A stretch of 64,000 nt of DNA from the human T2T-CHM13v2.0 reference genome, Homo sapiens. The position numbers were made by a program, and so were the translations under genes. Under the pieces are notes generated by a model that did not search any database, was not told the DNA's origin, and saw only the letters and a list, made by a program, of their open reading frames with translations. Below, piece by piece: positions 45,617 to 53,899 of the stretch; the first letter of the stretch is position 1, and each line of letters begins with the position of its first letter. Location: NCBI RefSeq assembly GCF_009914755.1, contig NC_060927.1; one strand, given 5' to 3'.

Positions 45617-48425
45617 CTTCTCTCTTCTTTATTAATCTAGCTAGTGGCCTATCATTAATTTTTTTCAAAAAACCAACTCCTTGATTTGTTGACCTTTTGA
45701 ATGTTTTTCTGCGTCTCACTGTCCTTCAGGTTGAGCTCTGATTTTGATTATACATATTCTGCTAGCTTTAAGGTTGGTTTGCTCTTACTTTTCTAGTTCT
45801 TTTAGTTGTGATGTTAGGTTAATTTGAGATCTAACTTTTTGATGTGGGCATTTAGTGCTATAAATTTCTCTTGTAACAATGCCTTAGCTGCATCCCGGAG
45901 ATTCTGGAATGTTGTATCTTTGTTCTCATTTAGTTTCAAAGAACTTCTTGATTTTTGCCTTAATTTCATTATTTACTCCAAAGTTATTCTGGAGCATTTC
46001 CATGTAATTGCATGGTTTTGAGCCATTTTTTTTAGTTTTGATTTCTATTTTTATTGCACTGTGGTCTGAGAGTGTGTCTGGTATGGTTTTGGTTCTTTTG
46101 CATCTGCTGATTGCTTTATGTCCGATTATGTGGTCATTTTTAGAGTATGTGTCATGTGGCAATCAGAAGAATGTATTTTCTATTGTCTTTGGATGGACAG
46201 TTCTGTAGAGGTCTATTAGATACATTTGGTCCAGTGTTGAGTTTAGGTCCTGAATATCTTTGTTAATTTTCTGCTTAGATGATCTGTCTAATACTGTCAG
46301 TGGAGTGTTAAAGTCTCCCACTATTATTGTGTGGGAGCCTAAGTCTCTTTTTAGGTTTCTAAGAACTTGCTTTATGAATCTGGGTGCTCCTGTGTTGAGT
46401 GCATATATATTTAGAATAGTTAGGTATTCTTGTTGAACTGAATGCTTTACATTATGTAATGCCCTTGTCTTTTTTGAGCTTTGTTCGTTTAAAGTCTGTT
46501 TTGTCTGAAATTAGGGTTGCAATGCCTGCATTTTTCTGATTTCCATTTGCTTGTTAGATTTTCCTCCATCCCTTTATTTTGAGCCTATGGATGTCATTGC
46601 ATGTGAGATGGGTTCCTGAAGACGGCGTATCATTGGGTCTTGCTTTTTTATTCAGCATGCCACTCTATGCCTTTTTAAATAGGGCATTTAGGCTATTTAC
46701 ATTCAAGGGTAGTATTGATATGTGTGCATATGATCCTGTCATTGTGTTGTTAGCTGATTATTATGCTGGCTTGTTTGTGTGGTTCCTTTATAGTGTCACT
46801 GGTGTGTGTACTTGAGTGTATTTTCCTAGTGGTGTTTTAATGGTTTTTCTTTTCCATATTTAGTGCTAGCTTCAAGATGTCTTGAAAGGTGGGTCTGGTG
46901 GTAATGAACTCGCTTAGCATTTGCTTATCTGACAAGAATCTTATTTCTCCTTTGCTAAGGAAGCTTAGTTTGGCTGGTTATGAAATTCTTGAAGATTTTT
47001 TTCCTTTAAGAATGTCAAATATAGGTCCCCAATCTCTTCCAGTTTGCAGGGTTTCAGCTGAGAGGTCTGTTGCTAGCCTGATGGGGTTCCCTTTGTTGGT
47101 GATCTGCCCTTTCTCTCTAGCTGCCTTTAACATTCTTTTATTTAGACATTGGAAAATCTGATGATTATGTGTCTTGGGGAGATCTTGTGTAGAATCTTGC
47201 AGGGGTTCTCTGTATTTCCTGAATTTTGACTGTTGGCCTCTCTAGCGAAGCTGGGGAAATTTTCATAGATGATATCCTGAAATATGTTTTCCAAGTTGTT
47301 TGCTTTCTCCCCATCCAATTCAGGGATATCAGTGATTTGCAGATTTGGCTTCTTTATATAATCCCTTATTTCTTAGAGGTTTTATTCATTCCTTTTCATT
47401 CTTTTTTTCTTTACTTTTGTCTGACTCTCTTATTTCAGAGAGCCAGTCTTCAAGTTCCAAGATTCTTTCCTCAGCGTGGTCTATTCTGCTGTTAATACTT
47501 GCAATTGGGTTGTGAAATTCTTGTAGTGTGTTTTTCAGCTCTATCAGGTCAGTTAGATTCTTTTTTGCACTGGCTATTTTATCTGCCAGCTCCTGTATTG
47601 TTTTATTGTTAATTCTTAGTTTCCTTGAATTGGGTTTTGCCATTCTCCTGAATCTCGATGCTCTTCATTCCTGTGCATATTCTGAATTCTATTTCTGTCA
47701 TTTCAGCCAACTCAGCCTGGTTAAGAACCCTCATTGGTGAACTAGTGCAATCGTTAGGAGGACATAAGACACTCTGGCCATTTGAATTGCTGAAGTTCTT
47801 GTGTTAGTTCTTTCTCATCTCTCTGTGTGGGTGTTCCTTTAACTGCTGGGCTGCCTCTAATTGAAGTGGTCAGGTGGGGGTACAGTGGTTGTGCTGGAGT
47901 CCCAGGTCAGGCAGCCCTGTCCAGTGAGGAGAAGTGAGGACCAGGATCTACATGGAGAACCGTCTGACCACTTTTCGGTGAGATGGGTACTGTGCTTGGG
48001 GTTCAGACCAGGCTTCAGTCCCATGGACTCTCCAGAGCCTGGAAACAGCAAAGGTGAGGGCTGCAAGGCAGAAAAGATGGAAACACCACCCTCCCAGTGG
48101 GAGCTCTGTCCCAGGTTGCTGCAGAGCTGCTACTGGCTCCAAAGTCCCAGTGAAGGGAGGCTGGAAACCCAAGCCTGGAGGACTTTCCCAGTGAGGAGAT
48201 ATGGGAGTGGAGACCCATGTAAGAAACAGTCTGGCCACTTTTCCATGACTACTCCAGTAAACTAGGGGCCTGCTCTGGTCCCCAGTCACCTCGGATTTTC
48301 CAGCACCACTTCCCTGGGTGGGGGAGGCTCCTCTGGCCCTGTGTCGTTCCTGAGTGGGTGGTTGTCCTGCTTTGCTTTTTTCCATTCTCTGTGAGTAGAG
48401 TTGTTTTCTTTTTTTTTTTTTTTTT

Positions 48426-49050
48426 GTTTTAAATTTTTTTATTGATACATAATAGATGTACCTATTTTGGGGAGTACATATGATAACTTAATACATTCAT
48501 AGAATTCACAAAGATCAAATCAGTGTAATTGGGATATTCATCACCTTGAATACTTTTCTTTATGCTAAAACATTTGCTTTATTCCCTTCTAGCTATTTCA
48601 AAATATACAACAGATTATTGTAAACCATAGTCACCTTACTGATCTATCAAACACCAGGTCTTATTTCTTCTATCAAACTGTATATTTGTACCCATTAATC
48701 AACCTCTCTTCATCCCCCCACCTCCTCCCCTTTCAGCCTCCAGTAACCACCAGTCTATTCTCTAACTTCATGAGATTTACGTTTTTAGCTCCCAAATATG
48801 AGTGAGAACATGTGATATTTGCTTATCCATGCTTGGCTTATTTCACAACACAGTGACTTCCAGTTCCATGCCTGTTGCTGCAAATGACAGGATCTCATTC
48901 TTTTTCATTGCTGAATAATATTCCATTGTGTATACATCACCTTTTCTTTATTCACTCATCCATTGATGGATACTTAGATTGATTCTATATTTTAGCTATT
49001 GTGAATAGTGCTGCGATAAAGATGGGAGTGCAGATATCTTTTCCATATAT
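48426..49050 (-). mobile_element. L1MA-like 3' end (inside the transduced segment)
   Basis: L1MA 3'UTR motifs; supplies the terminal AATAAA of the cassette. Confidence 0.8.
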
Positions 49051-49233
49051 TGAAACTTATAGATGTTATCCTAAAAAGTTAAAAGCCTCCCCTCAGTCTG
49101 AACTGCTTTGACATCTGGAACTTCCTTTTTCAAACCCAAAGCTGCCTGTCATAATCCCAACTGATTCCTACTGCTTGTCTTTAAATTTTCCATCCCAATA
49201 GGCCACCAGCCCTTCTGCTATAAACTTGCACAT

Positions 49234-49536
49234 TCTTTTTTTTTTTTTATTTTTTTGAGACGGAGTTTTGCTCTGTCATCCAGGCTAGAGTGCAATGGCC
49301 CTATCTTGGCTCACTGCAACCTCTGCCTCCCAGGTTCAGGCGATTCTCCTGCCTCAGCCTCCCAGGTAGCTGGGATTACAGGCATGTGCCACCACGCCTG
49401 GGTAATTTTGTATTTTTAGGAGAGATGGGGTTTCACCATGTTGGTCAGGCTGGTCTCGAACTCCTGAACTCAGATGATCTGTCCGCCTCAACTTCCCAAA
49501 GTGCTGGGATTACAGGCAGGAGCCACCGCGCCCGGC
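49234..49536 (-). mobile_element. Alu (AluS-like) with its own TSD
   Basis: TSD ACTTGCACATTCTT / ACTCGCACATTCTT. Confidence 0.95.
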
Positions 49537-53360: not shown

Positions 53361-53406
53361 CCTTGGGATCCTGTTGATCTGTGACCTTACCCCCAACCCT
53401 GTGCTC
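53360..53406 (+). mobile_element. 47-bp SINE-R fragment in opposite orientation, abutting the hexamer
   Basis: GCCTTGGGATCCTGTTGATCTGTGACCTTACCCCCAACCCTGTGCTC matches SVA SINE-R/HERV-K LTR5 sense sequence as I recall it. Confidence 0.9.
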
Positions 53407-53593
53407 CCTTCTTTCTTTCTTTCTTTTTCTTTCTTTCCTTCCTTCCTTCTTTCTTTCTTTCTCTCTTTCCTTTCTTCCTTCCTTCCTTCCTTCCTTCTTT
53501 CTTTCCTTCTTTCCTTCTCTCTCTCTCTCATTCTTTCTTTCTTCCTCTTTCTTTCTCAGAGTCTTGCTCTGTTGCCCAGGCTGGAATGCAGTC
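53407..53593 (-). repeat. Alu 3' terminus with (GAAA/GGAA)n tail; 5' part of the cassette
   Basis: CT-rich microsatellite, then CAGAGTCTTGCTCTGTTGCCCAGGCTGGAATGCAGT cut off at the TSD. Confidence 0.88.
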
Positions 53594-53899
53594 GAGTTGT
53601 TTTCTTGATGAATCCGTTTGTGTACCTGGGTGTTCCAGTTGAAGTGCTGTATTTACTTGCCCCTTCTATTTCTTTCCATGAAGGCGGCACACACTAGCTG
53701 TTTTTAGTTGGTCACCTTGGCCAACCCCCCTGAATTGTATATTTTAAATAAGGGAATTGTATGGTGTGTGAATTATAACTTAATAAGACTGTTATAAAAT
53801 AAAAAGAAACTATCATAGAATAACAGTGTCCTTTCATATGTAGCATATCTGTATTGATGGGTGAAATAAAGCCTAGTAAAAGAGCCAGGGCTGGCAGTT

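What the first reader, a model, noticed from the sequence alone, without database searches (positions are those of the whole stretch)
48398..53606. 5.2-kb SVA cassette recording three successive retrotransposition rounds and importing foreign DNA into DCBLD2 intron 3
Seen: the host L1 5'UTR is cut and resumes after 5.2 kb. GAGTTGTTTTCTT is duplicated at 48398-48410 and 53594-53606 (17 bp with one mismatch if extended), with an L1-endonuclease-like TCTT/GA site and a poly(A) at 48411-48425. On the - strand the insert reads: Alu 3' end and GAAA tail, inverted SINE-R piece, SVA, 510-nt tail, poly(A) 1, rest of the GAAA tract, two TSD-bearing Alus, L2-like DNA, L1MA 3' end, poly(A) 2. Established: L1MA and L2 are older than L1PA13-16, so they could not have inserted into this host L1, and SVAs are known to make 5' and 3' transductions. 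Inference: the whole block came as one RNA from a source locus where the SVA had landed in an Alu microsatellite tail. This defines a traceable grandparent-parent-daughter SVA lineage that a repeat masker would report as about ten unrelated fragments.
Basis: partly seen in the sequence, partly recalled or inferred. Interest (0 to 1): 0.88.

Follow-up and report, generated by a model that had tools for sequence, protein, structure and literature searches.

The report
SVA insertion carrying chr18 and chr7 DNA
A 5.2-kb retrotransposed block in a DCBLD2 intron is a rearranged SVA element that carried pieces of chromosomes 18 and 7 with it. This is a well-documented way for SVAs to move DNA, here with both source sites identifiable.

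Summary
A 5,183-nt insert lies between two copies of a 13-bp target-site duplication in the 5'UTR of an old minus-strand L1. Eight of 11 paralogous L1 copies carry both flank ends joined, with a single copy of the 13-mer.

The DNA on both sides of the SVA comes from chr18:22,261,824-22,263,826 of the same assembly (7 substitutions in 1,740 nt). There the two segments are joined by one (TTTC)n tract, with no SVA, no poly(A) and a full Alu.

The 508-nt tail comes from chr7:55,198,539-55,199,048 (2 substitutions in 510 nt), which is also empty.

New here: the SINE-R stops after about 155 nt, 19 nt are missing, and the next 50 nt lie inverted directly 5' of the hexamer. That is the geometry of a twin-priming inversion.

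Best reading (about 0.7): a twin-primed SVA on chr7 produced a SINE-R-poor derivative. That derivative landed in the chr18 Alu tail and then moved to chr3 as one RNA with 5' and 3' transductions. Both source copies are now lost.

Rival (about 0.12): a 2-kb chr18 retrocopy arrived first and the SVA inserted into it later.

Serial and two-sided SVA transductions are already in print, so interest is moderate.

The parts
48398..48410 (.). Target-site duplication, left copy (GAGTTGTTTTCTT). It is followed in the uninterrupted host by GA, giving a TCTT/GA nick site on the + strand.
48411..48425 (-). Poly(A)2, 15 nt, the terminal tail of the whole insert. It is absent at chr18, where only TTTT stands.
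48426..49053 (-). 3' end of an old L1, part of the chr18-derived 3' transduction. Its AATAAA lies 12 nt before poly(A)2.
   Evidence: 38 other genomic copies at 78-83% identity, all ending within query 1-628; similar to other L1 pieces of the window; no Pfam hit
49054..50168 (-). Rest of the chr18-derived 3' transduction. It holds unique DNA and two minus-strand Alus (about 49237-49539 and 49808-50117), each with its own TSD. Both Alus are also present at chr18.
50169..50208 (-). Left part of the (TTTC)n = (GAAA)n Alu-tail microsatellite, chr18-derived. It ends in CTTTCTTTCTTTC, which is repeated at 53411-53423 and is the likely TSD of the inner SVA insertion.
50209..50227 (-). Poly(A)1, 19 nt, the tail of the SVA-plus-chr7 transcript.
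50228..50739 (-). Tail copied from chr7:55,198,539-55,199,048 (minus strand). AATAAA lies 18 nt before poly(A)1. It shares 2 nt (TG on the minus strand) with the SINE-R end.
50738..50890 (-). SINE-R, first ~155 nt only (direct arm). It stops at ...GTTCTG.
50891..52960 (-). SVA VNTR, about 2.07 kb (periods 37, 40 and 49).
   Evidence: alignment to five reference SVAs
52961..53310 (-). SVA Alu-like region.
   Evidence: all 39 non-self hits scored, of 4,027 candidates, are 98-99% identical over 389-391 nt
53311..53359 (-). [quoted passage not shown]
53360..53409 (+). 50 nt of SINE-R in the opposite orientation. In SVA coordinates it begins 19 nt beyond the point where the direct arm stops.
   Evidence: 100% identical to 8 of 11 reference SVAs, 98% to the other 3
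53410..53556 (-). Right part of the (TTTC)n tract, chr18-derived. It forms the 5' transduction together with the next part.
53557..53593 (-). Last ~36 nt of an Alu, chr18-derived; at chr18 the Alu continues at full length. Base 53593 (G on the minus strand) matches neither chr18 nor the host.
53594..53606 (.). Target-site duplication, right copy.

Best explanation
This is one L1-mediated (target-primed) insertion of a 5.2-kb RNA, in sense orientation in DCBLD2 intron 3, inside the 5'UTR of an old L1.

The RNA was transcribed from chr18:22.26 Mb, about 100 kb from the GATA-finger exons on that chromosome. A rearranged SVA then sat there in the (GAAA)n tail of an Alu.

Transcription began about 235 nt upstream of the hexamer, in the Alu 3' end. 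It read through the SVA's own poly(A) site. It ended 1.78 kb further on, at the AATAAA of an old L1. The insert therefore carries a 5' and a 3' transduction from the same locus.

The SVA that had landed on chr18 was already a derivative. An earlier SVA insertion on chr7 (about 122 kb upstream of the GF_recep_IV exons, probably EGFR intron 1) had gone in by twin priming. Its hexamer-to-SINE-R-155 part was inverted relative to its SINE-R 3' part.

A transcript of the opposite strand started 50 nt inside the 3' arm. It ran through the hexamer, Alu-like region, VNTR and first ~155 nt of SINE-R into chr7 flank, and was polyadenylated 508 nt later.

Shown: the TSD, the tails, both source loci, the direction of copying and the breakpoint geometry.

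Inferred: that an SVA ever sat at chr18 and chr7 (both are empty now), and the twin-priming step.

The 9 substitutions in 2,250 nt (0.40%) put all the copying steps well after the human-chimpanzee split. That dating uses a recalled divergence of about 1.2%.
For: TSD, host and tails:
- TSD and precise interruption of the host L1.
- Both tails are absent from their source loci. Each follows an AATAAA by 12 or 18 nt.

chr18 source:
- Only chr18 holds the full 1,740 nt besides the window. Identity is 99%, with 7 substitutions and 3 indels.
- chr18 has the two flanks contiguous through one (TTTC)n tract. It continues beyond both ends of the copy, so copying went from chr18 to chr3.
- The SVA has the same orientation as the chr18 segments, as co-transcription requires.

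chr7 source:
- The tail has a single other copy, on chr7, with 2 substitutions in 510 nt. That is the same divergence as the chr18 flanks, which fits events in quick succession.

Twin-priming geometry:
- The direct arm ends at SINE-R ...GTTCTG, 19 nt are missing, and the next 50 nt lie inverted and abut the hexamer's 5' end.
- There is 2-nt microhomology at the SINE-R/chr7 junction and no AG acceptor.

Priors from Kirby et al. 2025 (PMC12593883; sections 6, 7, 9 and 10 read):
- 32 of 543 polymorphic SVAs carry both 5' and 3' transductions.
- 27 carry transductions from several loci.
- 16% of transduction-carrying SVAs have no source SVA found.
- The authors propose short-lived active sources that are quickly lost.
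Against: - No SVA is present at chr18:22,259,001-22,268,500 or chr7:55,195,001-55,204,900 in this assembly (megablast sensitivity).
- None lies on chr18 between 14.39 and 32.02 Mb, or on chr7 between 54.73 and 64.20 Mb, among the 543 non-reference SVAs of Kirby et al.. The model therefore needs two lost source copies.
- No sibling copy with the tail or the chr18 flanks exists elsewhere in the genome.
- The nick site for the inner insertion lies in a pure pyrimidine tract, which is not the canonical TTTT/AA.
- The G at the 5' end could be a cap-derived extra base (a full-length RNA). It could equally be a mutation inside a 17-bp TSD with AGT microhomology (a 5'-truncated copy). It does not decide anything.
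- The sequence alone cannot separate this model from a later SVA insertion at chr3.
Confidence: 0.7

Rival explanations
1. Nested independent insertions. A roughly 2-kb polyadenylated chr18 transcript (Alu end, GAAA tract, two Alus, L1 end) was first retrocopied into the DCBLD2 L1. Later the chr7-derived SVA inserted into the GAAA tract of that retrocopy at chr3. No SVA ever sat at chr18.
For: - chr18 is empty in this assembly, and no non-reference SVA is listed there in 35 genomes.
- This model needs only one lost source (chr7) instead of two.
- T-rich Alu tails are frequent targets for L1-mediated insertion (recalled).
- The final sequence would be identical.
- The divergences (7/1,740 and 2/510) allow either order of events.
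Against: - It needs trans-mobilisation of an anonymous intergenic transcript, which is rare. In Schloissnig et al. (passages) there were 48 orphan transductions against 878 partnered ones and about 8,800 L1 and SVA insertions.
- It then needs an SVA to hit that same 2 kb, in the same orientation, within a short time. My rough estimate is well under one such case per genome. Two-sided SVA transductions are 32 of 543 in Kirby et al..
- No SVA or young L1 lies within 4.7 kb upstream at chr18 to make it an orphan transduction.
Confidence: 0.12
2. The SVA/chr7 chimera was made in one integration event, without any SVA on chr7. L1 reverse transcriptase started on a polyadenylated chr7 antisense RNA and switched template to an SVA RNA at SINE-R position ~155. 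A second primer annealed near SINE-R ~220 of the same SVA RNA, giving the 50-nt inverted piece. The history then has two rounds rather than three.
For: - chr7 is empty.
- There is 2-nt microhomology at the junction and no splice acceptor.
- Kirby et al. propose just such a template switch for SVA-CKS1BP.
- A collision of the two cDNAs would also explain the 19-nt gap.
Against: - It needs two unusual events in one integration.
- It needs an anonymous intronic antisense RNA as the first template, whereas CKS1B is an abundant mRNA.
- A twin-primed SVA followed by read-out into the flank needs only mechanisms that are each well established on their own.
Confidence: 0.15
3. A single event with several template switches at chr3. 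Reverse transcription started on the chr18 RNA, jumped in the GAAA tract to the SVA-tail RNA, and at that RNA's 5' end jumped back to the same chr18 RNA.
For: The cDNA end in a (TTTC)n tract could pair weakly with a poly(A) tail. Chimeric retrocopies are known.
Against: The jump back must return to the same RNA at the adjoining place in the tract. Likely TSD-like repeats (CTTTCTTTCTTTC) flank the inner element, as expected for a DNA-level insertion.
Confidence: 0.03

Closest known systems
SVA elements with both 5' and 3' transductions and 'concatenated' transductions (Kirby et al. 2025, Mob DNA 16:42, PMC12593883). Also Damert et al. 2009 and Xing et al. 2006, both recalled and not readable here.
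   Same: - Extra non-SVA DNA lies inside the TSDs on both sides and is traceable to unique loci.
- Pieces from more than one locus record successive rounds.
- Source loci are sometimes empty.
- The 5' transduction contains Alu sequence.
   Different: - The 3' transduction is long: 1.78 kb, against a published mean of 347 bp and a maximum of about 4 kb.
- Kirby et al. traced no transduction to chr18.
- The inner 'transduction' does not follow an intact SINE-R and poly(A) signal. It replaces two thirds of the SINE-R.
Twin-priming 5' inversions of L1-mediated insertions (Ostertag and Kazazian 2001; cited, content recalled).
   Same: An inverted segment and a direct segment derive from one RNA. 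Their breakpoints lie a few nucleotides apart (a 19-nt gap here). There is short microhomology at the internal priming site.
   Different: The twin-primed copy itself is not observed. What is seen is a retrocopy of a transcript read from its opposite strand. Two full-text searches listed no paper about such re-mobilisation of a twin-primed SVA. The searches were not exhaustive.
SVA-CKS1BP template-switch chimera (Kirby et al. 2025, section 9).
   Same: The SVA is joined to foreign polyadenylated sequence with no poly(A) between them and no splice site. The chimera served as a source element.
   Different: There the SVA is complete and the partner is an mRNA. Here the SINE-R is cut, a 50-nt inverted piece is present, and the partner is intronic antisense DNA.
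Gibbon LAVA, PVA and FVA composite elements, and the finding that the SINE-R is dispensable for SVA mobilisation (both recalled, not checked here).
   Same: An SVA 5' part (hexamer, Alu-like region, VNTR) is combined with a non-SINE-R 3' end and remains mobile.
   Different: This is a single human copy with no family. Searches with the tail and with the flanks found no sibling.

Membership tests
L1-mediated (TPRT) retrocopy | Target-site duplication flanking the insert | tested here: met
   The 13-mer occurs twice only and 0 of 100 shuffles reach that count. It is single-copy in all 8 informative paralogous L1s, of 11 examined.
L1-mediated (TPRT) retrocopy | 3' poly(A) not encoded at the source locus, downstream of a poly(A) signal | tested here: met
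   There are 15 A at the insert end, where chr18 has AAAA and then unrelated DNA. AATAAA lies 12 nt upstream.
L1-mediated (TPRT) retrocopy | Endonuclease-like nick site (TTTT/AA-like; consensus quoted in Raiz et al.) | tested here: met
   TCTT/GA on the primed strand. This is a loose match.
SVA retrotransposon | (CCCTCT)n hexamer, Alu-like region and VNTR in that order | tested here: met
   TRF arrays. The Alu-like region is 98-99% identical to all 39 non-self hits scored. It aligns from the hexamer into the VNTR with 5 reference SVAs.
SVA retrotransposon | Complete SINE-R with its own poly(A) signal | tested here: not met
   Only the first ~155 nt are direct and 50 nt are inverted. The rest is absent. 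The element is an SVA derivative, not a canonical SVA.
SVA 5'/3' transduction | Non-SVA sequence between the SVA and the TSDs, traceable to one unique locus where the two sides adjoin | tested here: met
   chr18:22,261,824-22,263,826; the two sides are joined by one (TTTC)n tract.
SVA 5'/3' transduction | A source SVA at that locus | tested here: not met
   Absent in this assembly. No non-reference SVA is listed on chr18 between 14.39 and 32.02 Mb in Kirby Table S2/S4. GRCh38, other haplotypes and apes were not testable here.
Twin-priming inversion | Inverted and direct segments of one RNA with adjacent breakpoints | tested here: met
   A 19-nt gap separates the end of the direct arm from the start of the inverted piece. 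The piece abuts the hexamer 5' end.
Twin-priming inversion | Both arms inside one TSD pair at the insertion site | not testable with these tools
   The chr7 site is empty in this assembly. Only an A-rich stretch 14-17 nt before the junction hints at a nick site.

The most novel reading that the evidence does not exclude
A twin-priming inversion on chr7 created a new kind of SVA transcript unit: hexamer, Alu-like region, VNTR and 155 nt of SINE-R, driven from inside the inverted 3' arm and ended by a poly(A) signal in an intron of the ErbB-receptor gene on chr7. Despite losing two thirds of its SINE-R, it jumped at least twice more, to chr18 and then chr3. Both intermediate copies vanished from the population. 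It would be a natural human counterpart of the 3'-end replacement that founded the gibbon LAVA-type elements, and a worked example of short-lived 'stealth' source copies.
Probability: 0.5. Interest if true: 0.5.

Novelty: new member of a known kind. Interest (0 to 1): 0.35.

Why it matters
The locus shows SVA-mediated DNA shuffling with both donor sites pinned to the base. About 2.5 kb of chr18 and chr7 DNA, including two full Alus and an L1 end, was moved into a gene intron.

It also gives sequence-level evidence that an SVA lacking most of its SINE-R probably stayed mobile. It further shows that twin priming can create a new transcription unit rather than a dead copy.

In practice, repeat annotation will split this single event into about ten fragments.

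The insert lies in sense orientation in DCBLD2 intron 3 and brings two poly(A) signals that were each used at least once. It could therefore affect DCBLD2 transcripts. That effect was not tested here.

Tried and rejected
Tools and searches that gave nothing:
- Rfam scan of 44000-58000: no match, because Alus do not reach family cut-offs.
- Pfam on three short minus-strand frames of the L1 3' end: no family. The L1 identity of 48426-49053 therefore rests on copy number and similarity.
- The 'L2-like' label: the inter-Alu segment has only the chr3 and chr18 copies plus one 51-nt hit. The label is not shown.
- Furin-like domain search to place the chr7 gene: no chr7 hit. GF_recep_IV worked instead.

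Explanations rejected:
- Splicing as the origin of the SINE-R/chr7 junction. No AG precedes any of the three possible boundaries.
- Orphan L1 or SVA transduction from just upstream on chr18. There is no SVA or young L1 in the 4.7 kb read.

Literature:
- The search 'SVA' plus 'DCBLD2' found 23 papers. The 15 listed concern the sva software or cancer signatures.
- One phrase search returned nothing.
- Damert 2009 and Xing 2006 are not held. Whether they list this element is unknown.
- The Schloissnig et al. supplement was searched for cytobands and coordinate prefixes. There was no relevant hit, but the file is cut, so this is no evidence.
- In the Kirby supplement, phrase searches across table cells do not work. 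The control string also failed, so those negatives are void. The ordered entries give the usable negative.
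Full report
**1. What is at the site**

The 13-mer GAGTTGTTTTCTT occurs only at 48398-48410 and 53594-53606 in the window. The expected count is 0.13, and 0 of 100 shuffles gave two. The left copy is followed by 15 further T (poly(T) run 48409-48425).

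To test whether the flanks were once contiguous, I searched the assembly with 48150-48410. I then aligned both flanks to the 11 paralogous loci returned.
- Eight of the 11 hold both flank ends. In all eight the ends overlap by exactly 13 nt, so there is one copy of the 13-mer.
- The other three lack one end.

Minus-strand frames left of the site match L1 ORF1 domains (Transposase_22 at 47142-47372, E = 1.2e-14; dsRBD at 46978-47241). They also match the L1 endonuclease (46163-46510). The host is therefore an old minus-strand L1 hit in its 5'UTR. The nick site on the primed strand reads TCTT/GA.

**2. Anatomy of the insert, read on the minus strand**

| Coordinates | Part |
|---|---|
| 53593-53557 | Last ~36 nt of an Alu |
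| 53556-53410 | (GAAA)n-type tract |
| 53409-53360 | 50 nt of SINE-R in reverse orientation |
| 53359-53311 | (CCCTCT)n hexamer |
| 53310-52961 | Alu-like region |
| 52960-50891 | VNTR |
| 50890-50738 | First ~155 nt of SINE-R |
| 50739-50228 | 508-510 nt of non-SVA 'tail' |
| 50227-50209 | A19 (poly(A)1) |
| 50208-50169 | More of the GAAA tract |
| 50168-49054 | Unique DNA with two sense-oriented Alus, each with its own TSD |
| 49053-48426 | An old L1 3' end |
| 48425-48411 | A15 (poly(A)2) |

- The Alu-like region is 98-99% identical to all 39 non-self hits scored, of 4,027 candidates.
- The SINE-R start is 98-99% identical to all 39 non-self hits scored, of 863 candidates.

The core is therefore an ordinary young SVA. 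I could not name its subfamily without a repeat library.

**3. Source of the flanks**

A search of the whole assembly with 48426-50165 scored 40 of 23,103 candidates.
- Only two places cover all 1,740 nt: the window itself and chr18:22,261,828-22,263,564 (99%).
- The other long hits cover only the first 628 nt at 78-83%. These are copies of the L1 3' end.

In 9.5 kb fetched from chr18:
- Window 48422-50227 aligns to 2824-4626 (99.1% of 1,806).
- Window 53409-53592 aligns to 4637-4826 (92.6% of 190; microsatellite).

At chr18 the two segments are therefore neighbours, joined by one (TTTC)n tract with no SVA. chr18 also lacks the poly(A): it has four T where the window has the TSD plus 15 T. The Alu runs on at full length. 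chr18 is thus the donor and chr3 the RNA-derived copy.

The cleavage site follows an AATAAA by 12 nt. Outside the microsatellite the copies differ by 7 substitutions (3 at CpG) and 3 indels in 1,740 nt.

**4. Source of the tail**

A search with 50228-50735 scored 40 of 87 candidates.
- Only the window and chr7:55,198,539-55,199,048 (99%) cover it.
- The rest are hits of 81 nt or less, mostly to its (TG)n.

In 9.9 kb of chr7 the tail is ordinary contiguous DNA with no SVA. There are 2 substitutions and 1 indel in 510 nt.

- Poly(A)1 follows an AATAAA by 18 nt and is not encoded on chr7.
- The SINE-R/chr7 junction shares two bases (TG).
- None of the possible boundaries is preceded by AG, so splicing is excluded.

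Placement of the two donors:
- GF_recep_IV exons lie at chr7:55,321,405-55,325,345 on the plus strand. The donor is about 122 kb upstream of them and on the opposite strand.
- From recalled GRCh38 coordinates this is probably EGFR intron 1, antisense. The gene name and intron are my inference.
- GATA-finger exons lie at chr18:22,362,053-22,366,647. The chr18 donor is about 100 kb from what I take to be GATA6.

**5. The truncated SINE-R and the inverted piece**

I aligned the element to 11 reference SVAs.
- The direct arm ends at ...GTTCTG.
- The next 19 nt of the SVA are missing.
- The following 50 nt are the piece found inverted at 53360-53409. It is 100% identical to 8 of the 11 references and 98% to the other 3.
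- That piece abuts the 5' end of the hexamer.

Two breakpoints 19 nt apart, with the inverted segment joined to the RNA's 5' end and short microhomology at the other junction, are what twin priming produces. I recall the mechanism from Ostertag and Kazazian 2001, and only its citation was seen.

Read on the other strand, a twin-primed SVA at chr7 would have this order: antisense 3' arm, hexamer, Alu-like region, VNTR, SINE-R 1-155, then chr7 flank. That is exactly the order observed.

I therefore propose that the tail is the upstream flank of a twin-primed SVA, read out from the opposite strand. An alternative without any chr7 SVA also fits and cannot be excluded (about 0.15). In it, a template switch from a chr7 RNA to an SVA RNA combines with a second priming in one integration. 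Kirby et al. propose a template switch for SVA-CKS1BP.

**6. One RNA or nested insertions?**

The same final sequence arises in two ways:
- (a) The SVA sat in the chr18 tract and the whole 5.2 kb moved as one RNA.
- (b) A 2-kb chr18 retrocopy came first and the SVA later hit its GAAA tract at chr3.

Against (a):
- chr18 and chr7 are empty here.
- In Kirby et al.'s ordered list of 543 non-reference SVAs from 35 genomes, none lies on chr18 between 14.39 and 32.02 Mb, or on chr7 between 54.73 and 64.20 Mb.

For (a):
- SVA RNAs are preferred L1 substrates.
- 32 of 543 polymorphic SVAs carry both 5' and 3' transductions, and 27 carry pieces from several loci.
- 16% of transduction carriers have no source found, and the authors argue for short-lived sources.
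- The orientation is the one co-transcription needs.
- The 5' transduced length (about 185 nt of chr18 DNA) is typical; the published mean is 172 bp.
- Model (b) needs a rare retrocopy of an anonymous transcript, then an SVA hit in that 2 kb in the same orientation. By rough count I expect fewer than one such case per genome.
- No SVA or young L1 lies within 4.7 kb upstream on chr18 that could have made an orphan transduction.

The divergences (0.40% and 0.39%) are equal within wide errors and fit either order. The odd base at the 5' end (G; chr18 has C, the host has T) may be a cap-derived extra G. It may instead be a mutation within a 17-bp TSD with AGT microhomology, so it does not decide.

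I put (a) at about 0.8 of the two, and the full chain including twin priming at about 0.5-0.7.

**7. Age**

Nine substitutions in 2,250 nt (0.40%; Poisson range roughly 0.18-0.76%) is about a third of the human-chimpanzee divergence. I recall that divergence as about 1.2%. The copying steps are therefore probably human-specific and close in time. This is a prediction and was not tested here.

**8. Comparison with what is known**

Two-sided, long and concatenated SVA transductions, empty source loci and SVA chimeras are all published. I read sections 6, 7, 9 and 10 and further passages of Kirby et al. 2025, and passages of Schloissnig et al. 2025.

What I did not find in print is a twin-primed SVA re-mobilised from its opposite strand with its SINE-R largely replaced. 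Two full-text searches and a check that Kirby et al. never mention twin priming or inversions turned up nothing. These searches are not exhaustive. Damert 2009 and Xing 2006 could not be read.

**9. Verdict**

Both donors are found, but the parental SVAs are not.
- It is a new member of a known kind, with a noteworthy structural twist.
- Interest is 0.35.

Noticed in passing
G000 C1:117,438,174-117,440,629 and C10:21,449,828-21,449,995: These two SVAs are the closest matches to the SINE-R start of the window's SVA (99%). The chr1 copy shares the variant GACATGAGAGAC and is also among the top Alu-like matches. They are possible close kin of the lineage's founder.
   Followed up: partly
G000 C7:55,381,340-55,381,730 (minus strand): An SVA 98% identical in the Alu-like region lies about 182 kb from the chr7 donor of the tail, on the same strand as the tail transcript. 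This is probably coincidence.
   Followed up: no
L009 8580-8880 (chr18:22,267,580-22,267,880): A G+C- and CpG-rich stretch lies about 4 kb upstream (in minus-strand sense) of the chr18 donor segment. It could be a promoter feeding transcription through the donor. This bears on the nested-insertion rival.
   Followed up: no
window 47900-48410: The host L1 5'UTR matches paralogous copies at several offsets. It also shows two similar ~60-nt units in the sequence, which suggests internal tandem duplication of the 5'UTR.
   Followed up: no
window 50169-50208 and 53410-53556 versus L009 4569-4790: The (TTTC)n tract differs greatly between chr3 and chr18. The block the SVA sits in has 13 TTTC units at chr18, against 3 plus about 4 at chr3. 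The flanking DNA differs by only 0.4%.
   Followed up: partly
window 50327-50359: The (TG)n inside the chr7-derived tail accounts for the single indel between the chr3 and chr7 copies.
   Followed up: yes
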